Positions 352 to 35,782 are shown, counted from the stretch's first letter. The stretch: 54,303 nt of DNA from a virus (IMGVR_UViG_3300032313_000663:1-54303); one strand, 5' to 3'. Notes: a model not told the origin generated them from the letters alone. Numbers and translations are program-made.

Positions 352-409
352 CCTGCCGAGGGAGGGCGGCGTGACGCCCAGCCTACCCCGTCACGCCGCC
401 CCCGGCAGG
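352..409. terminator. GC-rich hairpin between convergent genes
   Basis: GGGCGGCGTGACG...CGTCACGCCGCCC stem flanked by CCTGCCG/CGGCAGG; no U tract. Confidence 0.55.
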
Positions 410-414
410 CAACC

Positions 415-1290
415 TCATTCACTGATCCTTGGCAGCACGTCGCAAGGCTTCGGTCCCGTTTCAATGAAACGAGGATCGACATAATACGCTTTGGCGATTC
501 TGGGCGATGAATGATCAAGCATCGCCGTTGCATCACCGCCACGAGCAGCGTAGTGAGTCGCTGCGCTGCGTCTAATCATGTGAAATTTCGTCTTGCGTCC
601 GCCGTCGAGGCCAGCACGCTTGACGATCCTTCCAAACGAATGCCAGAGCATGTTCTTGAACTTGTCCCAACTGAAGATTGCCTGACCCTGCTTCTTGCCA
701 CGGCACAACTGATCGACGAGGTGCTGAGTCTCAAGGGAGAGGGAATAGAGTTTGTCTCTCTTCCGTCCCTTTCGATACTCGCTCCTGACGAGCAGTTGAC
801 CTTGTTGATAGTCGAGGACTTGCGTCCCCATGATCGCGCCGACACGCTCAGCAGTCTCCCAAAGAACACTCACGAGTGCCCGAAAATAGAGACTCGTCGG
901 AACTCCATCGACAGTGCCGACCTCCTTGTCGGTCGCACGGATCAACGATCGAATCTGATCGATCGTCCACGCCGTCGGTATCCGTTCGGGCAGCGTTGCT
1001 GGTGGGACGCACGGTCGAGTCTTTAAGAGGCCACGGTCACAGGCGAAGCGAGCGAGACTCAGTAGCTGAGTCCTCTCCTTTTCGGCAGTGAACGCAGACC
1101 GTTCGCTGGCACGCTTCGCGAGGAAGCGTGCCAGCGTCAGGTCTTCCAAGTCATCGAGCGTCGGCTGACGTTCGAGCCACTTCGCAAAAGAGCGAAGGGT
1201 GCAGTGATAAAGCCTCGTGGTGTTTTCGGATTTCCCACGAAGCTTCAGCGGGGCATAGATCGTCTCAAAAAACTCAAGTAGCGAAATCAT
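415..1290 (-). CDS. int: Tyrosine recombinase/integrase
   Basis: R (ETAER), HxxR (HMIRR), H (LDHSS) and Y (AYYVDP); start placed at the ATG after an AAGGAGG RBS. Confidence 0.92.
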   Translation of the reverse strand: MISLLEFFETIYAPLKLRGKSENTTRLYHCTLRSFAKWLERQPTLDDLEDLTLARFLAKRASERSAFTAEKERTQLLSLARFACDRGLLKTRPCVPPATLPERIPTAWTIDQIRSLIRATDKEVGTVDGVPTSLYFRALVSVLWETAERVGAIMGTQVLDYQQGQLLVRSEYRKGRKRDKLYSLSLETQHLVDQLCRGKKQGQAIFSWDKFKNMLWHSFGRIVKRAGLDGGRKTKFHMIRRSAATHYAARGGDATAMLDHSSPRIAKAYYVDPRFIETGPKPCDVLPRISE

Positions 1291-1434
1291 GGTGGTGTGT
1301 CCTCCTTCTGGTGCCACCGCATTGAAGTACTCCTAACGAGCGTCCTCAATATGGGTGGCAGAGTACACATCCGTGCAAAAAAGTTGACCCCCATGCGTAC
1401 CTTATTTGGGGGGGCAAGACTCACTTCTTGTAAG

Positions 1435-4757: not shown

Positions 4758-5065
4758 GCGACTTCGAGCAATTAAAGAAGTTCGCCGACGATCAGGCCAA
4801 GAGTCGCAAGGCGTGCGAGAACTGCGGCTGGTTTGCGGTTCGCAAGGAAGAGAAGACAGGCGAGTGCCACCGCTACCCCCCGTCTCACGCCACGATGGCT
4901 GACGACGAGTGGAAGCACCCCATCACGTCGCGAGACAACATCTGCGGCGAGTTCGTCCACAGGAGAACCGGCGACAGCTTTCAGCCTGATCCGTACAGGG
5001 CTGTTGCGGTCAGGCTTGCACGAGCGGAAGAGGAACTCGACAGACTGAGGAGGGGTGGCGAGTGA
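4754..5065 (+). CDS. Cys-rich phage protein
   Basis: CENCGWF...GECHRYPP...CGEF. Confidence 0.7.
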   Translation: MSDFEQLKKFADDQAKSRKACENCGWFAVRKEEKTGECHRYPPSHATMADDEWKHPITSRDNICGEFVHRRTGDSFQPDPYRAVAVRLARAEEELDRLRRGGE

Positions 5066-5394
5066 GTGACCGTCCATTCGGCTTTGTGTCAAACGTGAAA
5101 TGCACCCGAGACGAAAACGGTCGCGTGACTATTCACTGGCCTGAAGGGGCAAGATCGACCGACATTTCGCGAGAAATGCTTGACGATATGGTCGATCGCC
5201 TGAACGAGCGATTGTGGATTTCTGTAAGCGAGCGATTGCCTGACGAGGACTGCCGAGTTCTTGGCTGGGACGGAGCCAGAGTGAGCGAAGTTCATTTTCA
5301 TTCGCGAGCGAAAGAATCCGAGCAGTGGAGTTCTCTTGCGGGGCATGAGTCGCCCTCTTTTTGGATGCCTCTACCTGAACCACCGGGATGGTGA
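5062..5394 (+). CDS. DUF551-like domain protein
   Basis: WISVSERLP...WMPLPEPP. Confidence 0.8.
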   Translation: MSDRPFGFVSNVKCTRDENGRVTIHWPEGARSTDISREMLDDMVDRLNERLWISVSERLPDEDCRVLGWDGARVSEVHFHSRAKESEQWSSLAGHESPSFWMPLPEPPGW

Positions 5395-5395
5395 C

Positions 5396-5797
5396 ATGAG
5401 CTACATCGACGACGAAAGCACGGTCTCGCTCTTGATCGGCAAGACGCTGGAATGCGTCGAGATGAATTACGACGAAGACGAGATTTACTTCTCTTGCACC
5501 GACGGCGAAGCGTTTCGATCGTATCACATGCAGGACTGCTGCGAGAGCGTGAGCGTTCACGACATTTCAGGGAGTTTGCAAGACCTGATCGGATCGCCAA
5601 TCGTTGAGGCTGAGGAAGTCATCGACAGCGAGAACTGGCTTTCCGACGATTCGAGACCGAGCGAATCGTTCACATGGACAACGCACAAGCTCAAAACTGC
5701 ATCTGGCGTCGAGGTTGTCGTGCGATGGCTGGGCGAGTCGAACGGGTACTACAGCGAGTCTGTTTACTTTCAGAGGACACACAAGCGAGGACAATAA
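5396..5797 (+). CDS. Conserved acidic phage protein
   Basis: YHMQDCCESV...DLIGSPI...RWLGESNGYYSESV. Confidence 0.8.
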   Translation: MSYIDDESTVSLLIGKTLECVEMNYDEDEIYFSCTDGEAFRSYHMQDCCESVSVHDISGSLQDLIGSPIVEAEEVIDSENWLSDDSRPSESFTWTTHKLKTASGVEVVVRWLGESNGYYSESVYFQRTHKRGQ

Positions 5798-6096
5798 TGG
5801 ACATCGAACAACTGAAACTGGTTCTTGAAGCGATCAACGCCGCTGGCGGCGAGGCCAAGGAATTTGGCTTCTGGTGGCTAGCATGCCGGTCGCTTTCTCC
5901 TGTTCTGTGCTTCGTTTTCTTCATGACCGCACTCGTGATGATCGTGCGGACTATCAGCAGATTCATAAAGGTCGATCATGCGGCATACGAGATCGCTGGC
6001 GAGGTCGATTACGCTGTTCATTGCTATTGGGATCGACACGACACGGCCGCAGTGATCCAACGAATCCGAGACCTGAAGAAGAAGGCGGCTAAGTGA
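5797..6096 (+). CDS. Membrane protein
   Basis: Central hydrophobic helix; TAATG coupling. Confidence 0.65.
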   Translation: MDIEQLKLVLEAINAAGGEAKEFGFWWLACRSLSPVLCFVFFMTALVMIVRTISRFIKVDHAAYEIAGEVDYAVHCYWDRHDTAAVIQRIRDLKKKAAK

Positions 6097-6413
6097 TGAA
6101 CCGTCGCGGTTTTTTCGGCTGGCTCTCGTCGATCGCGGTTGCGTCGCGGCCTGCCCCCAAGCCCGAGCCGTGCCTGACGCCAGCGTATGCGGGATTCGAC
6201 GGTTCGTTTCGTCTTTACGGAGGAACCTACGGAAGCGGCTACTTGATCAAGCTTGCGAGGACATCCGCATCAAGTCCGGGGCGATGGAAAATCGACAAGG
6301 GCAGGATGGGCTACTGGCGAAACGACGACGGATCGGTATCGAAGTTGATCTGGAGAAACGCCGATGGCAAATTGTTCGATCTTCAGTTCGTGCCGATGGA
6401 GGAGCCGACATGA
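6093..6413 (+). CDS. Hypothetical protein with twin-arginine-like N-terminus
   Basis: MNRRGFFGWLSSIAVA. Confidence 0.65.
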   Translation: MMNRRGFFGWLSSIAVASRPAPKPEPCLTPAYAGFDGSFRLYGGTYGSGYLIKLARTSASSPGRWKIDKGRMGYWRNDDGSVSKLIWRNADGKLFDLQFVPMEEPT

Positions 6414-7420
6414 AAAAGGACATTCTCCAAGTCATTCAAGACCTACTGAAGCACCGCACGGAAGACGCTGGCTGCTACGAGTTCGTACTTGAGGCGTGGA
6501 TTGAGGAAGCTGCCGCCGAGATCGAACGGCTGCGAAGCGGTGCGACATGCCCGCACGTGCGCGGCACCGTGACGCAGCATTGCTCGCTGAACTTCACGCT
6601 CACCGACGGGGAGCGGGAGGCGGTGGAGGCAGCCGTCCGAATCATTGACGCCCATGACGACGAGATGGACGGGTTCCCGTCAGGTGCTGCTGCCACGCTC
6701 CGCAAGCTGCTGGGGAGAACGAATCATGACGCTGTGCCGGAAGCGAGAGCCGCAGAGCCTGAGTCCTCAGTGCCACTGGGGAGCGGTGCGGCACCGGCAA
6801 ATACACAGACTGCTCCACCATGCGTGGAGACAGATGACCCACCGTCGAAAGGCGAGGGGCTTCATATTTCAGATTCCAGAACGCGACTCTCCGAAGCCGA
6901 GGTTGACGCTCTGGAATACGTCGTTGAGGAAGGCCGCATCGCCTGCATGGATGATTACGGCATCCTGCGGTCGCTGCTCGTCAGGTTGCGACCGAAATGG
7001 GAGAGCGAATCGTATGAGAAAGGCGACGAAATACGCACCAACGCTACTACGATTCGGGACACTACACCGGCTGTGGGTAGTGTGCAGCGTGATCTTATCG
7101 AACGCCTGCGAAGGTGGGTGGTCGCCACTGATGCCGTTCCTGCCTCCGACCTGATGGACGAAGCTGCGGACGAGATTGAGCGTCTCCGCGAGGCCATCCG
7201 CAGCCTAGCCGACCAAGATGCCACGCGGTCTGTTCGGGGCGGCAACGTGACTGGCGAGATGGAGTGTCAAGTTTTATTGCAACAAAACTTGACCGACGAG
7301 GAGCGGGAGGCGATTGAGTGGTTTGCGGAAGTGCGAAAGCCGCTGACCAGATTGACTCAGAGCCACAGCCGCGAAAAATACAAAGACACGCTTTGCGGGT
7401 TGCTGGAGCGGCTGAAATGA
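6410..7420 (+). CDS. Mosaic protein of repeated modules (336 aa)
   Basis: EAAxEIERLR twice, LTDxEREA twice, TNHDAVPEA and EIDALEYVVEEGRI-type modules; ends LLERLK. Confidence 0.7.
   Translation: MKKDILQVIQDLLKHRTEDAGCYEFVLEAWIEEAAAEIERLRSGATCPHVRGTVTQHCSLNFTLTDGEREAVEAAVRIIDAHDDEMDGFPSGAAATLRKLLGRTNHDAVPEARAAEPESSVPLGSGAAPANTQTAPPCVETDDPPSKGEGLHISDSRTRLSEAEVDALEYVVEEGRIACMDDYGILRSLLVRLRPKWESESYEKGDEIRTNATTIRDTTPAVGSVQRDLIERLRRWVVATDAVPASDLMDEAADEIERLREAIRSLADQDATRSVRGGNVTGEMECQVLLQQNLTDEEREAIEWFAEVRKPLTRLTQSHSREKYKDTLCGLLERLK
6719..6799 (+). repeat. Hairpin element H1, copy A
   Basis: ACGAATCATGACGCTGTGCCGGAAGCGA shared with 7540-7567; stems 6735-6740/6794-6799, 6749-6754/6787-6792 and 6764-6771/6775-6782. 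Confidence 0.75.
6888..7004 (+). repeat. About 117-bp module, second copy near 7668-7784
   Basis: GACGCTCTGGAATACGTCGT...GGCCGCATCGCC...ATGGGAGA present in both. Confidence 0.85.
7006..7087 (+). repeat. Hairpin modules H2+H3, second copy at 8048-8132
   Basis: CGAATCGTA/TACGATTCG stem followed by ACACTAC/GTAGTGT stem. Confidence 0.75.
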
Positions 7421-7791
7421 CTGACCGTGACTACTTCGCCGCCGCTGCCCTAACTCGCGGGATGGGAGTTCTTGGCCGTGAGCAGATTGCAAAATCGTGC
7501 TACGAAATGGCCGACGCCATGCTCAGAGAGCGGGAGCAAACGAATCATGACGCTGTGCCGGAAGCGATAGCCGATGGGCAGGGACGGGATAGCCCGGACA
7601 CTCCTGACCACGTTGGCACCGGCGACATTCCAGTTTCCAGAACGCGAGGACGGGTAGGCACAATACTATCCGAGGCCGAAATCGACGCTCTGGAATACGT
7701 CGTCGAAGAGGGCCGCATCGCCAGCATGGACGACTACGGCATACTGCGGTCGTGGTTGATCAGGCTGCGGCCGGAATGGGAGAACACATGA
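7417..7791 (+). CDS. Mosaic protein (RDYFAAAAL head plus repeat modules)
   Basis: MTDRDYFAAAAL...YEMADAMLRER followed by modules shared with 6410-7420. Confidence 0.75.
   Translation: MTDRDYFAAAALTRGMGVLGREQIAKSCYEMADAMLREREQTNHDAVPEAIADGQGRDSPDTPDHVGTGDIPVSRTRGRVGTILSEAEIDALEYVVEEGRIASMDDYGILRSWLIRLRPEWENT
7540..7624 (+). repeat. Hairpin element H1, copy B
   Basis: Stems 7556-7561/7619-7624 and 7570-7576/7611-7617; same AAGCGANA loop and single bulged A. Confidence 0.75.
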
Positions 7792-8399
7792 CACGAGAAA
7801 TCGGCCCGGAACTCGCCGCCCGCATCCGGCACGTTGCAGATAGCCTAGAGGCTATTGTGCGTGGCGAAGTCGATAGCCCGAATCCGTTCGCCGCCGCCTA
7901 CGCCGTCTATGTCAACGGAGAGTACGACTCGTCATACGGCCCCGACGCTATTGATGAGGCTCTGGAGATTGCCGCCGACTGCAACGGCGAGGTTGTGCCG
8001 CTGTACCGTACACCGCAGGCAAACGCTACACCGGGCGAGTGTAGCGTTCCCGGATCGTATGAGGAAAGCGACGAAAAACGCACGAACACTAATACGAATC
8101 GGGACACTCCACCAATAGGGGGTAGTGTGCAGGAAGAGGGTACGGTCGGCATGGCTGACATCGCTTATGAGGCTGCTGAGAATCTGCAAGGCGTCTGCAA
8201 GACGTTCGATCAGTGGTCGCGGGAGACGGCTGGCGTGATGCACCGGCTGGCGCGGCATATCGAAATGCTGGAGTCGCGAGTTCCTTCCGACGCAGAGCGA
8301 GAGGCGATTTCAATGGCGTACAGTCGCCTCACGGCGGATGCCAAGTACGGCGAAGTCGCGGCAACACTGAAGGCATTGTTGGAGCGCGTGCGTAAATGA
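7788..8399 (+). CDS. Mosaic protein
   Basis: VVPLY, SYEESDE and AEREAI...AATLKALLERVRK modules. Confidence 0.7.
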   Translation: MTREIGPELAARIRHVADSLEAIVRGEVDSPNPFAAAYAVYVNGEYDSSYGPDAIDEALEIAADCNGEVVPLYRTPQANATPGECSVPGSYEESDEKRTNTNTNRDTPPIGGSVQEEGTVGMADIAYEAAENLQGVCKTFDQWSRETAGVMHRLARHIEMLESRVPSDAEREAISMAYSRLTADAKYGEVAATLKALLERVRK

Positions 8400-8638
8400 C
8401 ATCCAAACGGAAACCCATTGCGTGGTGCGTTGTAGACGAAAAGCGTTCGCCCATTCACCTATCGCACGTCTACAGAACAAAAGCAGAAGCCATGTGGTGG
8501 GGCGATTTCATTGCTGGCTATAGCGGCGAGCCGGTGCGGGTTATGCCGTTGTGCGCAGGGTTATCGATAGTGTTTCCGCCGAGAGGAAAGAAACAAAAAG
8601 GGCCGACAAAACTGTGGATTCCAAAACGTGTTTTGTAA
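8396..8638 (+). CDS. Hypothetical protein
   Basis: ATGA coupled; PIAW...VMPL pattern like its neighbours. Confidence 0.6.
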   Translation: MTSKRKPIAWCVVDEKRSPIHLSHVYRTKAEAMWWGDFIAGYSGEPVRVMPLCAGLSIVFPPRGKKQKGPTKLWIPKRVL

Positions 8639-8648
8639 GGTGTGCGAA

Positions 8649-9035
8649 ATGAGCAAAGAACCCGCCGCATGGCTCGCCGTTGCCACTGATGGCAGCGAAA
8701 GCTCTGCCGTATACATTCTGAAAGAGCAGGCAGACGCCGCCGCCAGAGAGTGGGGCTGGACGGTCGTCCCGCTCTATGCGTTGCCATCACGGCGGGCTGA
8801 AGACGAAATCGCCATTGAAGCAGCGTGGGAACGCACCGGGCTAAAGCCCACATGGCCCGACGACGAGCCGGGGTGCGGCGTGAAGTATGCCCACGCGATG
8901 GCGGATGAGATTCTGCGGCTCCGTCTTACCGCAGAGGAGCGGGAGGCGGTTGAGGCGGCTATCTTCTCGTCTGAAGTGGAGGGCGAAAGGTTTTACGCCG
9001 CCACGCTTCGCTCGCTGCTGGAGCGGCTGAAATGA
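8649..9035 (+). CDS. Mosaic protein
   Basis: EPAAW...VVPLY...LTAEEREAVEAA...AATLRSLLERLK. Confidence 0.7.
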   Translation: MSKEPAAWLAVATDGSESSAVYILKEQADAAAREWGWTVVPLYALPSRRAEDEIAIEAAWERTGLKPTWPDDEPGCGVKYAHAMADEILRLRLTAEEREAVEAAIFSSEVEGERFYAATLRSLLERLK

Positions 9036-9130
9036 ACCGAGGCGTGTGCCATAGGTGTGCAGGCCGATGGATGCGGTGCTGGAAGTGCCAAGTTGGCACG
9101 CTCCGCTCCCTGCTGGAGCGACTTAAATGA
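9032..9130 (+). CDS. 32-aa CxxC-CxxC mini-protein with LLERLK tail (not in ORF track)
   Basis: MNRGVCHRCAGRWMRCWKCQVGTLRSLLERLK; ATGA overlaps at both ends. Confidence 0.7.
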   Translation: MNRGVCHRCAGRWMRCWKCQVGTLRSLLERLK

Positions 9131-9609
9131 ACACCATCGACCGACGGGCTTACGAGGGAGACATCGTCTCTCGGCTTCGCCACTGGCGCGGGCTGCACCT
9201 CGCTCACAGCGGTGAGCTTTTCGAGGAGGCGGCTAATGAGATCGCTCGCCTTCGCGGTGACGCGCAGGTTGCGAGACTGCGTCTAGAAGCGGCGCAGGGA
9301 GAGAACGCCACGCTCACCGTTCCGTGGAGCGTCGCGGCTTCGACGAGCCACGCCAGCTACTACTCTGCCCCGGTGCTTCCAAAGGGATTCGAGCCGATCA
9401 GGCTCGACGGATGGATGCCGACGAGCCAGCGTCTCCCTCCAGACGGCGAGACCGTCCTCTGGTATGCCCCTGAAGACAAGTTCTGCAAGTGGCTGTTGGG
9501 CAAAAAAGAAGGCGGAGGCCTTGACTGGGGCGGCGATCTGAACAGCCCGCTCACCGTATACACGCACTGGCGACATCTTCCGGGTCCGCCGCCGCCGTCC
9601 GTAAAATGA
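9127..9609 (+). CDS. Hypothetical protein with DUF551-like C-terminus
   Basis: DIVSRLR...EAANEIARLR...WMPTSQRLP...THWRHLPGPP. Confidence 0.75.
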   Translation: MNTIDRRAYEGDIVSRLRHWRGLHLAHSGELFEEAANEIARLRGDAQVARLRLEAAQGENATLTVPWSVAASTSHASYYSAPVLPKGFEPIRLDGWMPTSQRLPPDGETVLWYAPEDKFCKWLLGKKEGGGLDWGGDLNSPLTVYTHWRHLPGPPPPSVK

Positions 9610-9615
9610 ACGTAG

Positions 9616-10305
9616 ATGCCCAAGCCACAACGAGTGAAAAAGTCTCGACCGAAGCAGCCGATAGACATCGAGCCGCTTCGCGAAGTCGAGGTCACGCCGC
9701 TCAACCGACAGCAAGACGCTGCCCTCAAGGCTATGTCTCGCTCGTCGATCTCGTTTCTTCTCGGCCCGGCCGGGACGGGCAAGACTCATCTCGCGTGCGG
9801 CTATGCTGCACGGTGCGTGGCTGACGGGCGTTTCGAGAGGATCATTCTCACACGTCCGATCGTCGAGGCTGGCGAGTCTCTCGGCTATCTGCCCGGCACG
9901 TTCGAGGAAAAAGCGGCTCCGTATCTGTTGCCGATCCACGACGCGCTCGATGCCGTGGCCGGTCGCACGGGTCGGCGTCGCGAGCAGATGCGTGCCGTTC
10001 TGCAAGTCGCGCCGCTCGCCTACATGCGAGGCCGCACGTTCAACCGCTCGATCATCGTCGTCGATGAGTCTCAGAACTGCACGCTCTCGCAGTTGAAACT
10101 CGTGATCTCAAGACTGGGCCGAGACTCGCAGATGATCCTGACTGGCGACCTCTCGCAGAGCGACCTTCGCAACCACGAACAGGCTCTCGGAACGGTAGTC
10201 AATAAACTTGAAGGCCTGCCGGGAGTCACCGTTTTCCGTTTCGACTCGACCGGGATTGTCCGCCACCCGATTCTTCAGGGTGTGCTGGATCGCCTCGAAA
10301 AATAG
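9616..10305 (+). CDS. phoH: PhoH family ATPase
   Basis: GPAGTGKT, LGYLPG, PLAYMRGRTF, DESQN, GDLSQSD, IVRHP. Confidence 0.95.
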   Translation: MPKPQRVKKSRPKQPIDIEPLREVEVTPLNRQQDAALKAMSRSSISFLLGPAGTGKTHLACGYAARCVADGRFERIILTRPIVEAGESLGYLPGTFEEKAAPYLLPIHDALDAVAGRTGRRREQMRAVLQVAPLAYMRGRTFNRSIIVVDESQNCTLSQLKLVISRLGRDSQMILTGDLSQSDLRNHEQALGTVVNKLEGLPGVTVFRFDSTGIVRHPILQGVLDRLEK

Positions 10306-10343
10306 GCGTTTTTCGCTTTTGTGTCATAGCGAGAGACTTACAC

Positions 10344-10372
10344 TTGACAATAGACTGACCTCAGTCTACCAT
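10344..10372 (+). promoter_or_regulatory. Sigma70-type promoter with palindrome in spacer
   Basis: TTGACA-17-TACCAT; TAGACTGA-CC-TCAGTCTA at 10351-10368. Confidence 0.85.
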
Positions 10373-10414
10373 AGGGGCACAGTCGAAATCACCCCTCAGC
10401 AAAGGAGTCCACCA

Positions 10415-11500
10415 GTGAACACAACTCTCGCCGCTCCCGCATGGAAGTCTTACTGCGTCGGCACCATCGTCCGCCTCGACGACGGCCGCAACTTCCAGAT
10501 CAACGAGATCAGCATTGTCCATACGGACCGTGGCTACAACTCCCGCCGGTTCACGCTCTCCGGCCCCGGCGGCAAGACGGTGGTCAAGAGCAGCCGTGGA
10601 ATCACCCTCTGGGTGGCAGGCTTGGAGAACGATCGGGGCGAGCCGACGCCCGCCCCGAAGCCGATCGCCAAGCCTCCGGTCTCGCCGGTCGTCACGACGG
10701 CGGGCAAGATTCAGCACGCCTACTTCGAGGCCTTGCTGCGGATCGTCAAGGCACGTCGCAACTCGTGGCTCTGCGGCCCGGCGGGCAGCGGTAAGACGAC
10801 GTCGGCCAGCGAGGTGGCGAAGCTTCTCGGCCTGCGTTTCTTTGCCAAGTCTGTCGGCCCGCAGGTGACCGAGTCGAGCCTGCTCGGCTATCAGGACGCC
10901 AACGGTAAGACTGTCCGGACGCAGCTTCGCGAGGCTTTCGAGCATGGGGGCGTCTTCCTGCTCGACGAGGTCGATGCCGCCTCGCCTGCCGTGCTGGTCG
11001 TGATCAACGCCCTGCTCGCCAACGGCGAGGCTTCCTTCCCCGACGCGGTCGTCGAGAAGCATCCGGACTTCGTGTTGATCGCCGGGGCGAACACGATCGG
11101 CCTCGGTGCGGATCGCCAGTACGTGGGACGTCAGCAGATCGACGCTGCCACGCTCGATCGGTTCGTCCTGCTCGACTGGCCCTACGATCCCCGGATCGAG
11201 GCGGCTGCGGCTGGCGTGGCCGTGTCGGCTGTGTCGGCATCCGTCTGCCCCTCCCCTTTCCGCTTCGAGGGCGAGGACGGTGCGGAGGCTCGCTGCTACA
11301 AGTACGTAGAGCGGGTCGTCGCGATCCGCAACGCCGTGGCGGGCTTCGGCAAGGCGGTCCGCGTGATCGTCAGCCCCCGCGCCTCGATCAACGGCACTGC
11401 CCTGATCCGGCAGGGCTTCTCGATCGACGATGCCCTGAACCTCTGCGTCTGGAAAGGTCTGGATACGGACACCCGGAAGAAGATCGAGGGGGCTTGCTAA
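10415..11500 (+). CDS. MoxR/CbbQ/CobS-like AAA+ ATPase with extra N-terminal domain
   Basis: GPAGSGKT, FLLDEVD, GANT, DAATLDRF, SPRA; AAGGAG RBS before GTG. Confidence 0.9.
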   Translation: MNTTLAAPAWKSYCVGTIVRLDDGRNFQINEISIVHTDRGYNSRRFTLSGPGGKTVVKSSRGITLWVAGLENDRGEPTPAPKPIAKPPVSPVVTTAGKIQHAYFEALLRIVKARRNSWLCGPAGSGKTTSASEVAKLLGLRFFAKSVGPQVTESSLLGYQDANGKTVRTQLREAFEHGGVFLLDEVDAASPAVLVVINALLANGEASFPDAVVEKHPDFVLIAGANTIGLGADRQYVGRQQIDAATLDRFVLLDWPYDPRIEAAAAGVAVSAVSASVCPSPFRFEGEDGAEARCYKYVERVVAIRNAVAGFGKAVRVIVSPRASINGTALIRQGFSIDDALNLCVWKGLDTDTRKKIEGAC

Positions 11501-26447: not shown

Positions 26448-27815
26448 ATGGCTTCAAGGAAGAAGCCGTGGCCGCATCAGGCGGCTGCGGTGGCGTGGCT
26501 TCTCGCACGCCTATACGGGTTTCTGAATCACGAAATGGGCTGCGGCAAGACGCTTGTAGCCATTTTGGCGACGGCAGGATGCCGAAACACGCTCGTAGTC
26601 TGCCCGATTGCAGTCGGACCAGCATGGATTGCACAGGTCGCATCATCGGGCGACTCTCGCCGGGTCTGCCTAGCCGTCGAAGGATCGGCGGCTAGGCGGG
26701 CCGAGCGTATCAAAGAGGCTCTTTCGAGCGACGAGCCGACGATCGTAGTCATCAACTACGATTCCGTCTGGAGGCCTGAGATCGCGAAAGTGATCGCAGG
26801 GACTCAGTGGGACGCGATCATTCTCGACGAGTCTCACCGGATTAAGTCTCACACGGGCAAGGCCTCGAAGTTCTTGTGCAAGCTGGCGGAACGTCAGCCG
26901 CAGGCCAAGAGGCTCTGTCTTTCCGGTACTCCGACTCCGAAAGACCCGCTCGACTGGTACGCACAAATCAAGTTTCTTGACCCCGGGATTCTTGGCTGCT
27001 CGTACCCGGCTTTCCGCAATCGGATCGCCAACACTCACCCGAAATATCCGGGCTGGATCACCGGCTTCAAGCAGGATGGTCTCGACGCTCTCCGCGAGCG
27101 GATAGACCAGCACGTGCATCGAGTCAAGAGCGACGACGTCCTCGACCTACCCGAGGCGATCCACACGGTGATCGAGGTGGAAATCACCGGAAAAACCAGA
27201 CAGTTCTACGACTCGCTCGAAAACGACATGATCGCGTTTCTCGACGGCGAGCCGGTGACGGCTGCGAATCAGCTTGTCGTGGTCAGCAGACTTCGCACGG
27301 CGGCGGGCGGCTACAGTCGCATCGACGGCGGCAGTGAGTTCCAGTTGATCGACGGGACGCCTGCCAAGTCTTTGACGTTCGCGGACTGGCTCGAAGACTT
27401 CCCGCAACGCACGCCTCTCGTGGTTTTCTGCTCGTTCGTCCGCGACATCGAAGAGGTCGTCTCCCAGTGTCGCAAGGCAGGCAGGAGCGTGTCTCAGCTA
27501 CGCGGGGGCACGAACCAACTTTCCGAATGGCAGGCCGGTGAGACGGACGTGATCGTGATCCAGCAGCAGTCTGGCGGTGCGGGGATCGACTGCACGAGGG
27601 CCAGCCACTGCGTGTACTACAGCGTCGGCCACAGCTTGGGCGACTTCGACCAAAGCCTCGCGAGGCTCCGCAGGCCGGGCCAGAAACACACGTGCCGCTA
27701 CTACCACTTTGTTGTGAAGAACACGGTGGAGGAGACGATCTACGCCGCACTGCAAAACAAGAGAGACGTGGTTGAGGAAGTTCTATCGAGGCTGACAAGG
27801 AGGGTCGCGAAATGA
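26448..27815 (+). CDS. SNF2-family (SF2) helicase
   Basis: EMGCGKT, ILDESHRIK, LSGTP, SGGAGID, QSLARLRRPGQ. Confidence 0.92.
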   Translation: MASRKKPWPHQAAAVAWLLARLYGFLNHEMGCGKTLVAILATAGCRNTLVVCPIAVGPAWIAQVASSGDSRRVCLAVEGSAARRAERIKEALSSDEPTIVVINYDSVWRPEIAKVIAGTQWDAIILDESHRIKSHTGKASKFLCKLAERQPQAKRLCLSGTPTPKDPLDWYAQIKFLDPGILGCSYPAFRNRIANTHPKYPGWITGFKQDGLDALRERIDQHVHRVKSDDVLDLPEAIHTVIEVEITGKTRQFYDSLENDMIAFLDGEPVTAANQLVVVSRLRTAAGGYSRIDGGSEFQLIDGTPAKSLTFADWLEDFPQRTPLVVFCSFVRDIEEVVSQCRKAGRSVSQLRGGTNQLSEWQAGETDVIVIQQQSGGAGIDCTRASHCVYYSVGHSLGDFDQSLARLRRPGQKHTCRYYHFVVKNTVEETIYAALQNKRDVVEEVLSRLTRRVAK

Positions 27816-28633
27816 GTGATAGTCTGGAAGTGTTTACCGACATGAGCAATGAGACCTATCACGGGCGAAAGTCGCACGTGAGCCGGTCGCAGGCGAGTCG
27901 GTATCGAGGTGTTCGCGGAGGGCGAGCGCAGCGTTACGAGGAGGTGAAGGGTGGCAAGCTATTCGAGGGCAATGCCGGGACGTCTTTCGGGACGCTCGTG
28001 GACGTCGCCTTCGAGGCTGAGGCTCGTGGTCTCGACTGGCGGAGCCGGTGTGCTGTCGCGCCGCCGGAGGTGCTGACATCGAACGGCCAGCGGCGTGGCA
28101 ACGCGTTCGCGGCGTGGAAAGAGAGCCTTCCGCCCGGTGCGTTGGAGTGCAGCGTGGCCGACTTCGTGAAGGTCGCCGACATCATCGAGTCTCTCAAGGA
28201 ACACAAGATCGCTCGTCAGTTGCTGGAGTCGATCAAGCACACGCAGTACAGCGTGTTCTGGAAGGACGAGGACGGGCACGACCGCAAGGCACGACCTGAC
28301 GGCTTGAACGACGACGAGTGGTTTGACTTGAAGACGACGAGCAGCGAGTTCAGCAAGCTCAAGTATTCGTTCCGCGAGTTTGCCTATGACTGGCAGGCAG
28401 CTTGGTATCTGGACAGTGCGATCGCCGCAGGATGGAAGCCTTTCAGATTCCGCTTCATCGTTGTCCAGACTTTCGCTCCGTATGACGTCGCTGTCTTTAG
28501 TCTCGAAGACGAGGCGATCGAGAACGCTCGTCACGAGATCAGGAAGACTCTGGCAGACATGAAGCACCGTCGCGAGACGGGAGTCTACGTGCCTGATCAA
28601 TATCACGCGGAGCAAGTGTTGGAGTTGGGTTGA
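27812..28633 (+). CDS. RecE-like PD-(D/E)XK exonuclease
   Basis: MSNETYH...SRS...FGTLV...KARPD...DLKTT...YDWQAAWY. Confidence 0.85.
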   Translation: MSDSLEVFTDMSNETYHGRKSHVSRSQASRYRGVRGGRAQRYEEVKGGKLFEGNAGTSFGTLVDVAFEAEARGLDWRSRCAVAPPEVLTSNGQRRGNAFAAWKESLPPGALECSVADFVKVADIIESLKEHKIARQLLESIKHTQYSVFWKDEDGHDRKARPDGLNDDEWFDLKTTSSEFSKLKYSFREFAYDWQAAWYLDSAIAAGWKPFRFRFIVVQTFAPYDVAVFSLEDEAIENARHEIRKTLADMKHRRETGVYVPDQYHAEQVLELG

Positions 28634-28689: not shown

Positions 28690-29433
28690 ATGGCGAATGC
28701 CATCGCGACGGTAGGTAGTTTCGGTCTGTCGGTCAGCGGAGACGATTTCCGCAGGAACGAGCAGACGATCGTGAAGATTCCCGGCGGCGGGATCACGAAG
28801 TGGTCGTGGTCGACCATACTCGGCGATCAGGTGGAGAGCGAGATCACTGGCGTGATCGTGGCTCTCACCGAGGTGCAGCACGACCTGTGGCCTCACACGG
28901 GTCAGGCTTCTGAGAAGTCGAGCCCGTACATGCGGAGCCTCGACGGCAAGACGGCGAAGATCGTGGGGGCTGACTCCGGCGACCTCGACGTCAAGCACAT
29001 CGAAGCGGCGAGGATCGAGGGCACCGAATTTTTCGACTGCTCGAAGATCAAGTATTTCCTGTGGGAGAAGCAGGGCGATCGAAACATCCCGCCGCGTGCC
29101 AACGCGACGAGTACGATCGGCATCCTCCGCGCGGGAGACTCGGCTCCTCTTTTCATCCGGCTGTCGAAGACCTCGTCGCCGAAGGTGCAGGAGTTCGCTC
29201 GTCGGCTGCGTGGTCAGGGCGTGCAGCCCTATCAGGCGATCGTGAGTCTCGGTCTGGAGGCTGTGAAGGGTGCGAAGGCGACCTACAGCCGCGTGGTGCC
29301 GAAGTTCGTCAGCCCGGCCCCGGCGGAGATGGTCGACGCGTTTCGTAGCTACTTCGAGCAAGTCTCGCCGAAACTGCGTGGCTCGATGGAACTCTACGTG
29401 GGCAAGGAATCGCTCGACGCGGTTCCCTTCTGA
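28690..29433 (+). CDS. Putative ssDNA-binding/recombination protein
   Basis: Lies between exonuclease and primase; C-terminus DAVPF resembles an SSB tail. Confidence 0.5.
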   Translation: MANAIATVGSFGLSVSGDDFRRNEQTIVKIPGGGITKWSWSTILGDQVESEITGVIVALTEVQHDLWPHTGQASEKSSPYMRSLDGKTAKIVGADSGDLDVKHIEAARIEGTEFFDCSKIKYFLWEKQGDRNIPPRANATSTIGILRAGDSAPLFIRLSKTSSPKVQEFARRLRGQGVQPYQAIVSLGLEAVKGAKATYSRVVPKFVSPAPAEMVDAFRSYFEQVSPKLRGSMELYVGKESLDAVPF

Positions 29434-29459: not shown

Positions 29460-29497
29460 TGCCCGGCCGGTGTGGGGCTGTCCCCACCGGCCGGGCA
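29460..29497. terminator. Long GC hairpin
   Basis: TGCCCGGCCGGTG...CACCGGCCGGGCA flanked by T runs. Confidence 0.6.
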
Positions 29498-29532
29498 TTT
29501 CTCACCATTTTTCATCAATCCAAGGAGGTTTT

Positions 29533-31131
29533 GTGGAGTACCGCGCACAGGAAGTGTTTCAGGCGGCGGCGGCAGTCGCAGGCAAGGGCTGGAAGGTCGT
29601 CAAGCTTTACGGCGTCAAGGACGACGCCACGTGTACGTGCCACCGTGGGGCTCAGTGCCCAACTCCGGGCAAGCACCCGGCCGGTGGTGCAGACTGGCAG
29701 AATCGTGCCACCGACGACGAGGACAAAATCTCTGAGTGGTTCGACTACTCTGACACGAGCCAGAGCGACCGAGTCAACGTCGGCGTGAGACTTGGCGAGT
29801 CCAGCGGCATCATCGACGTCGAGGTCGACGGCCCGGAGGCCGAGGAGACCCTGCGAAAGTATGGTCTCGACAAGATCGCGACCCCAACCTACCGGGCGTC
29901 TCGTGGATGCCACCGGATTTTCAAGTACGAGGACGATCTTCCTGACGTCGGAGTCGTGAAGGTCGACCAGCTTGAGGTGAGACTTGGCGGCGGCGGTAAG
30001 GCCGCTCAGTCCGTCATGCCATCGTCTTGGCATCGGACGGGCATCCAATACTTGTGGCTCCCCGGCCTGTCTCTGGAAGAGGTTGAACCGGCACCACTGC
30101 CACCAGAGTTCCGGGCGGCTGTGAAGGCCAACAGCAAGCAAGGCGGCAGCGGGGCCGTCGCTCAGGCCGTGCAGGCGATCATCGGAGAGGTTCAGGTGCC
30201 GATCGGGAATCGGCACGGATACTTGGTCGGCGTCGCCTCGTGGCTGTGCGGCAACCTGAAGAGGCACTTGCCCGAGGATCGCACCATCGTCACGAACCTC
30301 CTGCTCGCCCAGAACAGGTCTCTGCCCTCGCCAAAGGCTCCTGAAGAGGTCATGCGGATCGCCGCAGACCAGTTCGAGTATTACCGGATGCGTGCCGAGG
30401 AGCGTCGCAATAACCGCGAACGTCCGTTCGAGGCCTACGGTCTGGAGTGGAACTTAGAGAGCCGCGAGTGGGATGCCGGGACGTGGTCGCTCACGATCAT
30501 CCGCTCCGATCCTGTCGAGTACCGTCTCACGTTCCCTCACGAGGGGCGTGTTGTCAGCGTCTCGATGAACGAGACTCAAATCTACAACCCTGTCGTCGTG
30601 TCATCGCTCATCCTGTCTGCCAGCACGAACATCGACATGATGGTGCCGTACTCGGACGCGTGGAAGCTTCTTTGGATGGGAGGGCGGGTTCGCGACGGAG
30701 ACGGCTGGAGGAACGTGGTCTCGCTCCGGGCGAGGCTGATCCAAGACGCCGAGGTCGAGACGCCTTCGCTCGACTCCTGCATCTGGAGCCAGCACGCAGC
30801 CATCCTGAGAGGCTATCTGAGGCCGTTCAGCCGGTCAGACGACGACGAGAACGACCCTCCGTGTGCCGACGGCACGCCAAAGTGGATCAAGAAGGGCGGA
30901 AGCTGGCTCCTGTACTTCAAGTGGCAGGAAATGCTCAGGGCTGCGTGGCGGACCGTCTCCGTGCCGATCACGGTCGAGCAGGAGCGGACCCTGAAGAGGA
31001 AAATCCTCGAAGTCACAGGCGAGAAGGACTTCAAGGAGGCGGGCTTCCACCACAACGGCGAGAGTCTGGGCAAGTTCAAGGTCTGGACCGACGCCCATAT
31101 CAACGCGCTCGACCAACTCACCGGGGCTTGA
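29533..31131 (+). CDS. Bifunctional primase/polymerase (Prim-Pol) domain replication protein
   Basis: CTC...C...PGKHP, ATDD, NVGVRLG...IIDVEVD, GCHRIF, PSSWH...Y-W; no Walker A seen. Confidence 0.85.
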   Translation: MEYRAQEVFQAAAAVAGKGWKVVKLYGVKDDATCTCHRGAQCPTPGKHPAGGADWQNRATDDEDKISEWFDYSDTSQSDRVNVGVRLGESSGIIDVEVDGPEAEETLRKYGLDKIATPTYRASRGCHRIFKYEDDLPDVGVVKVDQLEVRLGGGGKAAQSVMPSSWHRTGIQYLWLPGLSLEEVEPAPLPPEFRAAVKANSKQGGSGAVAQAVQAIIGEVQVPIGNRHGYLVGVASWLCGNLKRHLPEDRTIVTNLLLAQNRSLPSPKAPEEVMRIAADQFEYYRMRAEERRNNRERPFEAYGLEWNLESREWDAGTWSLTIIRSDPVEYRLTFPHEGRVVSVSMNETQIYNPVVVSSLILSASTNIDMMVPYSDAWKLLWMGGRVRDGDGWRNVVSLRARLIQDAEVETPSLDSCIWSQHAAILRGYLRPFSRSDDDENDPPCADGTPKWIKKGGSWLLYFKWQEMLRAAWRTVSVPITVEQERTLKRKILEVTGEKDFKEAGFHHNGESLGKFKVWTDAHINALDQLTGA

Positions 31132-33961: not shown

Positions 33962-34110
33962 AGCGACTTTGCAACCGCTGCAACGCGGAGAAGACGTCCA
34001 ACGCACCGTGCGAGAAGTGCGGGTGCCAAGAGTTCCGAATCATCGGACCACCATGTCCGTCAGGTGCTGCATATCACGGCACCGTTGGTAGCCAAGCCGG
34101 TGTTGGCTGA
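33958..34110 (+). CDS. 50-aa zinc-ribbon protein (not in ORF track)
   Basis: GTGA overlap; CNRC...CEKCGCQEFR. Confidence 0.6.
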   Translation: MKRLCNRCNAEKTSNAPCEKCGCQEFRIIGPPCPSGAAYHGTVGSQAGVG

Positions 34111-34192
34111 TAACCCCGGCTGTCGAGGCGAGTGTTTAGCTCTTTTCCGCTTGTGACTCGATCGTCTGCCTCACGTTACGAGGCCCATACAC

Positions 34193-34441
34193 ATGATGGA
34201 CGACCTAGCAGAAATCAACCCTGAAGCCCTGCTCGCCGACGGCCTCGAAAAGGCTTTCGTTGGCTACACCGTCAATCACCACCACGCTCACGTCGCTGTG
34301 TATGACGTGCAGAGGTGCGTCGACATTCTCGTCGAGCGTGATGGCATGACTCACGAGGGTGCTGAAGAGTACCTGTCGTTTAACACCCTTGGTTGTTACG
34401 TGGGGCCGAATGGGCCGATTTACGTGAGGATGACCGCATGA
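34193..34441 (+). CDS. Conserved phage protein
   Basis: DGLEKAFVG...AVYD...DGMT...EEYLSFNTLG-YVG. Confidence 0.8.
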   Translation: MMDDLAEINPEALLADGLEKAFVGYTVNHHHAHVAVYDVQRCVDILVERDGMTHEGAEEYLSFNTLGCYVGPNGPIYVRMTA

Positions 34442-35767: not shown

Positions 35768-35782
35768 AGGCAAGGAAGCCTC

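What the first reader, a model, noticed from the sequence alone, without database searches (positions are those of the whole stretch)
6410..9130. Combinatorial ORF array assembled from shuffled short modules
Seen: six consecutive ORFs reuse a small kit of modules (EAAxEIERLR, LTxEEREA, TNHDAVPEA, EIDALEYVVEEGRI, SYExxDE, TPxxGSVQ, VVPLY, TLRxLLERLK) in different orders. The order in 6410-7420 is split across 7417-7791 and 7788-8399. Several modules coincide with hairpins. Inference: this is a diversifying locus in which microhomology or folded ssDNA/RNA sites drive shuffling, loosely like integron attC cassettes but at sub-gene scale. I do not recognise it as a described system.
Basis: partly seen in the sequence, partly recalled or inferred. 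Interest (0 to 1): 0.85.

Follow-up and report, generated by a model that had tools for sequence, protein, structure and literature searches.

The report
Modular small-gene family in a phage
A run of small, tightly packed early genes in an uncultured temperate phage is built from a few reusable protein pieces that related phages combine differently, mostly by ordinary recombination at one short conserved coding motif and not by hairpins or a dedicated shuffling machine.

Summary
The repeats are real. Five of the six ORFs, plus an unlisted 32-aa mini-ORF, share modules. Gene A (6410-7420) repeats the content of genes B and C. The modules are small helical units joined by disordered linkers. The core is an undescribed four-helix domain, X = M1 (DIVxRLRxW..EAADEIERLR) + M2 (LTDEEREAI..ATLRxLLERLK-stop). 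It has no Pfam family and no fold match.

Relatives do vary: 40 architectures in 147 distinct frames. But relative module order is almost fixed (231 of 241 ordered pairs). M2 is nearly always the C-terminal tail, usually ending in an NTGA stop/start overlap.

Gene A is an L002/L003-type X gene carrying a 690-nt in-frame insertion bounded by two copies of the 24-nt M2-start motif. B|C is a gene that relatives keep whole, split here by a 271-nt cassette.

Homology breakpoints are enriched at the M2 edge motifs (61 observed, 28 expected) but not at hairpins (20 observed, 18.3 expected). The two sides of the motif have unlinked histories, and the motif is conserved even at synonymous sites.

No reverse transcriptase, invertase or integron features were found, and no rearranged variants of this phage.

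Verdict: a mosaic paralog family evolving by recombination at conserved coding motifs, as in T-even adhesins and lambda Ea22. It is not a programmed diversifier. Protein function is unknown.

The parts
6410..7420 (+). Gene A, 336 aa. Architecture: M9-M1-I1-M2 then M3-M4-M5-M1-I2-M2. It is a fused, two-unit member of the family.
   Evidence: ORF. Module HMM map. AF2 model shows helical modules with disordered stretches at residues 45-61, 105-134 and 202-223.
6599..6622 (+). M2-start motif, copy 1 (LTDGEREA). Left boundary of the 690-nt in-frame insertion in gene A.
   Evidence: (D4/D5). L002 and L003 match the window upstream of this copy and downstream of copy 2.
7289..7312 (+). M2-start motif, copy 2 (LTDEEREA). 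Right boundary of the insertion. Homology to L002, L003 and L005 resumes at 7290-7292.
   Evidence: Contig joints 6628->7290 and 6531/6534->7290/7292 in relatives.
7266..7293 (+). AT-rich palindrome (10-bp stem) that abuts M2-start copy 2. It is specific to this copy.
   Evidence: (I11). RNA fold z -1.9.
7007..7093 (+). M5 linker, copy in gene A (SYEKGDE..TPAVGSVQ), with hairpin at 7059-7083.
   Evidence: D3, D8; pLDDT below 50.
7417..7791 (+). Gene B, 124 aa: M8 head, M3 linker, M4. M4 is a divergent M2-type helical hairpin.
   Evidence: phrog_2201, 3.2e-9 on residues 1-47; M2~M4 probability 97.2%.
7787..8057 (+). M10-M6c cassette (271 nt). It splits a gene that relatives keep whole (M8-M3-M4-M5-M2), supplies B's stop and C's start, and ends in the hairpin 8022-8048.
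   Evidence: Relatives' contigs join 7786->8058 in X8 (table 5) and 7785->8058 in X2 (table 5c).
7788..8399 (+). Gene C, 203 aa: M10, M6c (VVPLY-type), M5 linker, degenerate M1 helix, M2.
   Evidence: M6~M6c probability 95.4%.
8396..8638 (+). Gene D, 80 aa. Syntenic in relatives. Only weakly like the VVPLY domain.
   Evidence: (17 hits in 17 loci).
8649..9035 (+). Gene E, 128 aa: M6 (VVPLY) head, partial M1 helix, M2 tail.
9032..9130 (+). Mini-ORF Z, 32 aa: CxxC-x6-CxxC followed by TLRSLLERLK. ATGA-coupled to E and to F.
   Evidence: D2 copy at 9097-9132; conserved in L004 and L038.
9127..9609 (+). Gene F, 160 aa: M1, short coiled stretch, DUF551-like C-terminal domain.
   Evidence: PF04448, E 0.0092, below cut-off; phrog_924, 1.1e-7.
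4990..5391 (+). Second DUF551-like ORF, upstream of the array.
   Evidence: module HMM E 2.1e-22.
415..1317 (-). Generic tyrosine integrase at the left end of the record. Context only, not part of the array.
   Evidence: PF00589, 47.1 bits; far below the Xer and integron-type cut-offs.

Best explanation
The array is a tandem family of small, co-oriented, translationally coupled genes. It lies between the integrase end and the replication genes of an uncultured temperate phage.

Each protein is made of 30-45-residue units joined by disordered linkers. The common unit is M2, a C-terminal helical hairpin (LTDEEREAI...ATLRxLLERLK-stop). Together with the M1 hairpin it forms an undescribed four-helix domain, X. 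M2 is otherwise attached to different N-terminal 'heads': a VVPLY domain, M8, M10, a zinc knuckle. DUF551 heads joined to M2 appear only in relatives. In the window DUF551 follows M1 (gene F) or stands in the separate upstream ORF 4990-5391, without an M2 tail.

The variety arises over evolutionary time from three ordinary processes: tandem duplication, homologous or homeologous recombination, and illegitimate joins. Recombination happens at two short nucleotide-conserved coding islands, the 24-27-nt M2 start and the M2 end with its stop/start overlap. Illegitimate joins happen at 4-6-nt microhomologies. Only in-frame products are kept.

In this window these events produced two things:
1. Gene A, an X gene with a 690-nt in-frame insertion bounded by two M2-start motifs.
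2. The B|C pair, one gene split by a 271-nt cassette that brings its own stop/start.

Shown: the module homologies, the joints, the unlinked flanks, the codon-level conservation. Inferred: the recombination pathway, perhaps helped by the phage's PD-(D/E)XK exonuclease at 27812-28633. Also inferred is the protein role. I guess these are early accessory or adaptor proteins that associate through the M2 tail, by analogy with lambda Ea22. That guess is weak.
For: Module homology.

Family size and lack of annotation:
- 301 proteins at E <= 0.001 among 453 candidates of 41-132 aa. None of the 120 listed has a Pfam domain.
- 2,295 representatives at E <= 0.001 and 503 at E <= 1e-10 among 1.84 billion.
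- Of 62 longer relatives, only 2 carry a Pfam domain, both PF04448.

Fold: X gives four helices at pLDDT 85.4. In gene A the linkers M3 and M5 fall below pLDDT 50.

Grammar:
- 67 of 75 distinct M2 copies end within 4 aa of the stop. 52 of those 67 have an NTGA overlap.
- 231 of 241 ordered module pairs are consistent.
- The backbone [M1-I1-M2] | [M8-M3-M4-M5-M2] | [D] | [M6-M2] recurs in L047, L060 and L038, and in part in L059 (first two genes only).

Joints:
- The alignment shows L002 and L003 matching A copy 1 upstream of the motif and A copy 2 downstream of it.
- W 7292-7462 is 98.8% identical to L003, and 6790-6862 is 95.9% identical. Apart from one further 85% stretch (W 6528-6628), nothing else aligns.
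- L002 aligns over 1,982 nt inside the array and 0 nt outside it.

Breakpoints: 61 of 241 fall in the M2 edge motifs +/-5 nt, against 28 expected.

Unlinked flanks, from 221 distinct motif contexts:
- The correlation between upstream and downstream similarity is r = 0.03 over 24,310 pairs.
- 78 of 98 pairs that are >= 85% alike downstream are at background upstream.
- 128 of 147 pairs alike upstream are at background downstream.
- At >= 95% the figures are 18 of 28 and 18 of 27.

Protein-level selection on a folded module: M4 in A against B has 22 identical, 12 synonymous and 7 nonsynonymous codons.

Context: integrase, HTH_17, PhoH, CobS-like ATPase, helicases, DUF3799 exonuclease, primase, tail genes.
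Against: - The breakpoints are blastn HSP ends and similarity switches. They mix true crossovers with places where conservation simply stops.
- The loci are related to one another, so the counts are not independent events.
- The M2-start motif is conserved at synonymous sites beyond what protein selection explains. That hints at something more than passive recombination.
- The hairpin-bearing M5 linker folds better than shuffles on both strands (z -2.3 to -4.6). This is unexplained.
- No single-strand annealing protein was identified beside the exonuclease. ORF 28690-29433 has no family match.
- Nothing bears on protein function. No fold match reached E <= 0.001, and the ESM Atlas gave only 0.87 'Prophage protein' leads.
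- The record is about 55% complete, so genes outside it are unseen.
Confidence: 0.7

Rival explanations
1. The conserved islands are selected as recombination linkers. Under this reading the M2-start motif and the M2-end stop/start junction are kept identical at the nucleotide level because they let heads and tails be exchanged in frame between unrelated phages. They would be a coding counterpart of the T4-type PeSL cassettes.
For: - Third-codon positions in the motif carry 0.7-1.6 bits, against mostly under 0.4 in the flanks.
- Non-preferred codons dominate. CTC is used in 48 of 68 copies and ACC in 51 of 67, while the background favours CTG and ACG.
- Summed synonymous entropy over the first 8 columns is 6.95, against 12.6 for the background. 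The last columns of the same copies are at background.
- In 68 distinct contexts it lies between many different upstream modules and variable downstream bodies.
- The flanks are unlinked.
- The M2 end carries GGAG, a spacer and ATGA, so it brings the ribosome-binding site and start for the next gene (reading the GGAG as a binding site is my inference).
Against: - Frequent crossover or gene conversion within a motif that protein selection already keeps conserved would homogenise synonymous sites with no selection for recombinability.
- Conserved Glu codons in M1 are also GAG-biased.
- There is no experiment.
- Second-order selection is hard to demonstrate.
Confidence: 0.2
2. This is a programmed, active diversification locus. 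Hairpins or folded single strands would drive cassette shuffling within a phage population, in the manner of an integron, a shufflon or a diversity-generating retroelement (DGR).
For: - There are more hairpins than in codon shuffles: 6 against 2.2, P 0.02. Two have 10-bp stems against 0.145 expected, P 0.01.
- The hairpin 8022-8048 closes the inserted M10-M6c cassette, and a related hairpin closes M5.
- The palindrome 7266-7293 abuts a joint (8 breakpoints against 2.8 expected).
Against: - Overall, breakpoints are not enriched at hairpins: 20 against 18.3. Excluding the two that abut the motif gives 10 against 12.9.
- All long repeats are direct.
- There is no reverse transcriptase or resolvase/invertase in the window.
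- The integrase is generic and distant.
- Among relatives the hairpin pair states A-T, G.T, G-C and A-C all occur, so covariation gives no support.
- Paralogous copies are old: 80-89% nucleotide identity with many synonymous changes.
- The source run shows one arrangement (contigs only).
Confidence: 0.04
3. The M5 linker with its hairpins is a nucleic-acid element carried in frame, for example an RNA processing or stability structure, or a relic of a former intergenic region.
For: - RNA fold z is -2.3 and -3.7 on the + strand and -3.0 and -4.6 on the - strand. For three of these four folds, 0 of 200 shuffles did as well.
- The peptide is predicted disordered.
- The two window copies differ by 2 synonymous and 12 nonsynonymous codons at 79% nucleotide identity. 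That is not the pattern of a protein under purifying selection.
- The stretch is A-rich in a genome of about 60% GC.
Against: - No Rfam match. The only hit has E 0.99 and lies elsewhere.
- There is no covariation, and several copies have mismatched stems.
- Stability on both strands points to a DNA palindrome and not to a strand-specific RNA.
- Only 8 distinct copies were found.
Confidence: 0.15
4. The arrangement is an assembly artefact: repeats caused a chimeric contig.
For: Repeated motifs and co-occurring relatives in the same sample could mislead an assembler. Contig record 2 of X1 is a relative that shares only the motif.
Against: - A separately made contig from the source run covers 5600-10400 with 0 differences (record 1). 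It comes from the same reads but a different assembly.
- The shared repeats are only 24-36 nt.
- All frames stay open and are ATGA-coupled.
- L002 independently shows the B|C split, and L001 has a long fused form.
Confidence: 0.02

Closest known systems
T-even tail-fibre adhesins gp37/gp38, where recombination between conserved motifs swaps segments (Trojet et al. 2011, PMC3157838, passages read; it cites Tetart et al. 1996 and 1998, which I did not read)
   Same: Short, highly conserved coding motifs flank variable segments. [quoted passage not shown]
   Different: There the protein is a virion adhesin of known function, and the conserved motifs are glycine-rich core elements. Here the proteins are small early proteins of unknown function. 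The joint is the start of a C-terminal helical hairpin, and whole ORFs fuse and split.
PeSL cassettes (promoter-early stem-loop) in T4-type hyperplastic regions (Arbiol et al. 2010, PMC2839356, abstract and outline read; follow-up PMC4122927, search listing only)
   Same: Repeated short conserved sequences between small non-essential ORFs mediate insertion, deletion and replacement of ORF-sized modules.
   Different: PeSLs are intergenic promoter-plus-terminator units and form mini-circles. Here there is no intergenic space (six of seven junctions are ATGA overlaps). The repeated islands are coding, and promoter- and terminator-like hits do not sit at the junctions.
Lambda exo-xis region and mosaic Ea22 proteins (PMC10834534, passages read)
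   Same: Small early genes near int/xis of a temperate phage. Ea22 variants share one part and carry different 'portable' domains, one of which is DUF551. The genes are called mosaic.
   Different: In Ea22 the shared part is the N-terminal/coiled-coil region (Ead_Ea22 signature) and the C-terminal domain varies. Here the shared part is the C-terminal M2 tail and the heads vary. No window protein matched any Ead/Ea22 model at E <= 1.
Homeologous or relaxed homologous recombination by phage recombinases as the source of mosaicism (Martinsohn et al. 2008, PMC2327257, abstract read; De Paepe et al. 2014, PMC3945230, search listing and start of abstract only)
   Same: Crossovers at short stretches of identity inside diverged sequence. 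The phage encodes its own recombination exonuclease.
   Different: The pathway is not shown here. Only a DUF3799 PD-(D/E)XK exonuclease was recognised, with no annealing protein.
Integron gene cassettes (recalled from general knowledge; no paper read)
   Same: Co-oriented, promoterless, tightly packed ORFs whose content varies between relatives.
   Different: No IntI, no attI, no attC at the ORF ends. The units are parts of genes joined in frame.

Membership tests
Integron | An IntI-type tyrosine recombinase adjacent to the array | tested here: not met
   The only PF00589 match is 415-1317 (-), about 5 kb away at the end of the record. Its best NCBIfam hits are Xer-type models at 43-60 bits against cut-offs of 220-335.
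Integron | An attC imperfect inverted repeat at the 3' end of each cassette | tested here: not met
   Stems of 7 bp or more occur at 6 places and not at ORF ends. Six of seven junctions are ATGA overlaps with no spacer.
Diversity-generating retroelement (DGR) | A reverse transcriptase near a template/variable repeat pair | tested here: not met
   No PF00078 match in the window. The record is about 55% complete, so the test covers only this window.
Diversity-generating retroelement (DGR) | Repeat copies that differ mainly at adenines | tested here: not met
   Substitutions between copies are of all types. M4 A/B, for example, shows 9 substitution classes, and copies also differ by indels (alignment).
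Shufflon / invertase system | Inverted crossover sites flanking the segments, plus an Rci or Hin-type recombinase | tested here: not met
   All module repeats are direct. The inverted pairs are 14-25 nt, 74-93% complementary, and do not flank modules. No PF00239 match.
PeSL cassettes | An intergenic sigma-70-like promoter plus terminator stem-loop between ORFs | tested here: not met
   There is no intergenic space. Promoter-like hits (5 against 1.3 expected) and terminator-like hits (11 against 5.4) are not at the junctions.
Ead/Ea22 family | A match to the Ead_Ea22 Pfam/InterPro signature | tested here: not met
   No such family appears among the Pfam hits at E <= 1 for A-F. That the signature is represented by a Pfam model is recalled. 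The paper names it IPR025153.
DUF551 (PF04448) | A score above the Pfam gathering threshold | tested here: inconclusive
   F residues 95-155 score E 0.0092, 17.3 bits, against a cut-off of 22. phrog_924 gives 1.1e-7 and phrog_7704 gives 3.2e-7. Two longer X-domain relatives carry a precomputed PF04448.
Motif-mediated modular shuffling (gp38-like) | Conserved coding motifs at which histories switch between variable segments | tested here: met
   This is a resemblance in mechanism, not sequence-family membership.

The most novel reading that the evidence does not exclude
The 24-27-nt M2-start island is conserved to the codon in at least 119 viral contigs, and the M2-end stop/start junction sits at the other end of the tail. 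Together they would form an evolved, in-frame 'plug-and-play' linker system. It would let otherwise unrelated phages exchange protein heads and tails, and fuse or split early genes, without losing frame or translational coupling. It would be a coding-sequence counterpart of PeSLs, maintained by selection for exchangeability.
Probability: 0.2. Interest if true: 0.7.

Novelty: new member of a known kind. Interest (0 to 1): 0.42.

Why it matters
It gives a clean, countable example of sub-gene mosaicism in phage early genes. One short coding motif separates sequence blocks with unlinked histories across hundreds of environmental phage contigs. The result is a head-plus-tail grammar, not free permutation.

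It also defines a sizeable, unannotated protein family. That family has about 2,300 representative clusters, no Pfam model and no fold match, and its four-helix domain and C-terminal tail are worth characterising. The neighbourhood resembles the lambda exo-xis region, whose proteins influence the lysis-lysogeny decision.

It corrects the idea of a hairpin-driven, integron-like diversifier.

Tried and rejected
- GenBank phage DNA search with 6410-9609 (blastn 'distant'): no match.
- tRNA scan: none found.
- Rfam on 5000-10500: one hit at E 0.99, not credible.
- Pfam, PHROGs and NCBIfam on A-F gave nothing above threshold. The exceptions were partial PHROG matches and sub-threshold DUF551 and GmtX hits.
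- Foldseek of the X model against PDB and BFVD: no match at E <= 0.001. The best were 1.5 and 0.27.
- ESM Atlas with gene E: best score 0.87, 'Prophage protein', a lead only.
- Complex prediction of the M1 part of F (residues 1-60) with the M2 tail of E, each with its own alignment. The verdict was 'no answer' (score 0.02, mark 0.32, controls not run). I do not use it for or against binding.
- Genome-contig scan with the X alignment: 1 of 123 candidate stretches was confirmed, in a Phycisphaerales MAG. This is too thin to name a host.
- The look-up of sequencing runs: only the probable source run holds the whole stretch.
- Read laying used contigs at 90% likeness. The joints therefore come from relatives and from paralogous mapping, and they cannot show rare variants of this phage. 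Parts without cover in X2, X6 and X8 are not interpreted.
- Slippery-site, frameshift and internal-start readings of M5 and of the GGAG-rich motif were considered from the sequence. I dropped them because the candidate sites are not conserved between copies.
- Covariation in the M5 hairpin: pair states fit independence.
- The paper search for the peptide strings LTDEEREA, LTDAEREA, EAADEIERLR and TLRGLLER found 0 papers. I saw no description of the family in that library. Supplements are closed and were not seen.

Full report
**What the window is.** The window is one IMG/VR virus record of 54,303 bases. It is linear and about 55% complete by CheckV. It carries:
- a tyrosine integrase at 415-1317 on the minus strand (PF00589, 47.1 bits; generic by NCBIfam);
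- an HTH_17 protein at 1406-2302;
- a PhoH-like protein at 9616-10305 and a CobS-like ATPase at 10208-11500;
- helicases, a DUF3799 PD-(D/E)XK exonuclease at 27812-28633, a primase, an HNH endonuclease and tail genes.

This is a temperate-type phage. The array lies in the integrase-proximal early region. GenBank phages have no DNA match to the array.

**The observation.** The plus strand carries seven ORFs:

| ORF | Coordinates | Length |
|---|---|---|
| A | 6410-7420 | 336 aa |
| B | 7417-7791 | 124 aa |
| C | 7788-8399 | 203 aa |
| D | 8396-8638 | 80 aa |
| E | 8649-9035 | 128 aa |
| F | 9127-9609 | 160 aa |

Six of the seven junctions are ATGA stop/start overlaps. Every listed peptide module is present. 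Pairwise blastp gives A103-199 ~ B41-123 (E 3.8e-24), A201-336 ~ C90-202 (E 1.4e-8), and weaker C~E, A~E and A~F matches. DNA repeats of 23-136 nt at 80-89% identity underlie them. The two M2 edge motifs each occur three times, against none in 100 shuffles. D has none of the listed modules.

**What the modules are.** I built iterated profile HMMs for 15 modules and ran them over the window and 97 related loci. Profile-profile comparison reduces the kit:
- M4 (EIDALEYVVEEGRI...) is a divergent M2 (probability 97.2%, E 3e-11).
- The VVPLY part of C is a paralog of the VVPLY head of E (95.4%).
- D is weakly like the VVPLY domain (80%).
- Three control pairs score 0.5% or less.

The core is X = M1 + M2. 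It is usually a free-standing protein of 70-135 aa. AlphaFold2 with a 60-sequence alignment gives four helices, with M1 as helices 1-2 and M2 as helices 3-4, at pLDDT 85.4 and pTM 0.60. No PDB or BFVD fold reaches E <= 0.001.

The family is large and unannotated:
- 301 of 453 near-length candidates reach E <= 0.001, and none of the 120 listed has a Pfam domain.
- 2,295 representatives at E <= 0.001 and 503 at E <= 1e-10.
- Of 62 longer relatives, only 2 have a Pfam domain, which is DUF551.

The model of gene A (pLDDT 64.6) shows confident helical modules separated by low-confidence stretches at residues 45-61 (I1), 105-134 (M3 and linker) and 202-223 (M5). The 'modules' are therefore small helical units, two optional inserts between M1 and M2, and disordered linkers.

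**Do relatives vary?** Yes, but within a grammar. The window and the 97 loci give 147 distinct module-bearing frames in 40 architectures. An independent set of 119 loci, picked only by the 24-nt DNA motif, gives 248 frames in 33 architectures. In 110 of those frames M2 sits behind heads that my kit does not know, and 55 of 117 loci hold two or more M2-type ORFs.

Order, however, is nearly fixed. 231 of 241 ordered module pairs in 65 multi-module frames agree with one order. M2 lies within 4 aa of the stop in 67 of 75 distinct copies, and 52 of those 67 end in an NTGA overlap. A common backbone, [M1-I1-M2] | [M8-M3-M4-M5-M2] | [D] | [M6-M2], recurs in L047, L060 and L038, and in part in L059.

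**How the window's arrangement arose.**
- *Gene A.* Upstream of the motif CTCACCGACG.GGAGCGGGAGGCG, the X genes of L002 and L003 match A copy 1. Downstream of it they match A copy 2. So A is such an X gene with a 690-nt in-frame insertion bounded by two copies of the motif (6599-6622 and 7289-7312). The insertion is itself a mosaic of a B-like M3-M4, a C-like M5 and an L004-like M1-I2.
- *The B|C pair.* B|C corresponds to the single gene M8-M3-M4-M5-M2 of relatives. A 271-nt M10-M6c cassette (7787-8057) splits it and supplies B's stop and C's start. Relatives' contigs join 7786 (X8) or 7785 (X2) directly to 8058. M10-M6c also occurs as an ORF of its own in L040 and L069.
- *Z.* Z and its TLRSLLERLK end match L004, L006 and L038.
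- *Microhomology.* Two other joints show 4-6-nt microhomology. One is L059, where M5 meets an E-like sequence. The other is the left end of the cassette.

**Are breakpoints at hairpins?** No. I took 241 ends of 121 distinct blastn HSPs between the array and the loci:

| Location (+/-5 nt) | Observed | Expected |
|---|---|---|
| Seven hairpins | 20 | 18.3 |
| The five hairpins that do not abut the M2 motif | 10 | 12.9 |
| M2 edge motifs | 61 | 28 |
| B\|C junction (7780-7789) | 16 | not calculated |

Hairpins are somewhat more frequent than in codon shuffles (6 against 2.2, P 0.02). Their density is not far from the window average of 1.22 per kb.

The one recurrent hairpin is ACRCTAC..GTAGYGT in TPxxGSVQ. 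It folds better than shuffles. But its stem shows A-T, G.T, G-C and A-C states among relatives, without covariation.

**The motif as a joint.** I collected 221 distinct contexts of the motif (up to 4 mismatches). Similarity of the 75 nt upstream does not correlate with similarity of the 75 nt downstream (r = 0.03 over 24,310 pairs). Of 98 pairs that are >= 85% alike downstream, 78 are at background upstream. Of 147 pairs alike upstream, 128 are at background downstream. At >= 95% the figures are 18 of 28 and 18 of 27. The pairs are not independent, but the pattern holds in both directions.

L003 shares 98.8% identity over 7292-7462 and 95.9% over 6790-6862. Apart from one further 85% stretch (W 6528-6628) it shares nothing else. 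L002 aligns only inside the array. These modules therefore move between phages that are otherwise unalignable.

**Nucleotide-level conservation.** In 78 distinct M2 copies the first eight conserved codons have a summed synonymous entropy of 6.95, against 12.6 for the background. Non-preferred codons dominate (CTC, ACC). The last conserved codons of the same copies are at background. A logo shows a sharp island of about 27 nt whose third positions carry 0.7-1.6 bits. The exact 24-mer occurs in at least 119 viral contigs. It is always in the LTDxEREA frame, with 67 of 68 contexts open for 30 aa or more upstream and a stop 32-61 aa downstream in 65 of 68.

By contrast, M4 in A against B has 12 synonymous and 7 nonsynonymous codon differences, which is the mark of protein-level purifying selection on old paralogs. 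M5 has 2 synonymous and 12 nonsynonymous.

**Programmed systems.** There is no reverse transcriptase or resolvase/invertase. All long repeats are direct. The integrase is generic and distant. No attC-like element ends the ORFs.

The source run gives one contig over 5600-10400 with no difference, and no alternative joint of this phage. Contigs cannot show rare variants.

**Comparison with what is known.**
- The closest mechanism is motif-mediated in-frame shuffling in T-even adhesins (PMC3157838, passages).
- The closest ORF-scale analogue is PeSL-mediated shuffling (PMC2839356, abstract and outline).
- The closest context is the lambda exo-xis region, with mosaic Ea22 and portable DUF551 (PMC10834534, passages).
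- Phage recombinases that recombine diverged DNA offer a pathway (PMC2327257, abstract; PMC3945230, listing only).
- The peptide motifs are in none of the papers searched.

**Verdict.** The repeated modules are real and the locus is truly mosaic. It is best read as a paralogous head-plus-tail family, diversified by ordinary phage recombination at conserved coding motifs and microhomologies. It is not a hairpin-driven or integron-like diversifier.

Two points remain open. The codon-level conservation of the joint motif may mean it is selected as a linker (my estimate 0.2). The structured M5 linker may have a nucleic-acid role. Protein function is unknown, and the adaptor idea is an analogy.

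Noticed in passing
window 9032-9130: A 32-aa ORF with CxxC-x6-CxxC followed by the M2 end motif. It is ATGA-coupled to both neighbours. The zinc-knuckle part is conserved in L004 and L038, with or without the LLERxK tail.
   Followed up: partly
window 364-401, 1104-1136, 1759-1787: Three long perfect-stem palindromes (12-14 bp) flank the integrase and the HTH_17 gene. They could be attachment or operator sites.
   Followed up: no
window 29460-29497: A 13-bp-stem palindrome lies at the start of the primase-like ORF (29470-31131), just after the unassigned ORF 28690-29433 that follows the DUF3799 exonuclease.
   Followed up: no
window 34001-36000: A low-GC stretch (0.519 against about 0.60) holds an HNH endonuclease ORF (34393-35232). 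It could be a mobile insertion.
   Followed up: no
window 45198-47324 and 48308-49237: Two tail-fibre-like ORFs share a C-terminal domain (phrog_24074 and phrog_3545, E 1e-32 to 1e-36). This is a second paralogous, possibly modular, pair.
   Followed up: no
window 4990-5797: A second DUF551-like ORF (4990-5391) and a DUF7448 protein (5396-5797, E 7e-25) lie just upstream of the array.
   Followed up: partly
L102 (genome contigs): The only bacterial-genome hit of the X domain is in a Phycisphaerales MAG contig. It is a thin host lead.
   Followed up: no
A2 alignment; loci L104-L168: Two alternative inserts recur at the same point between M1 and M2 across the family: 'CPYVxGxxTxxCxLTP' and 'AIRRLADQDATLSVxxGNVTV'. 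Some inserts end in a second 'RLR'.
   Followed up: partly
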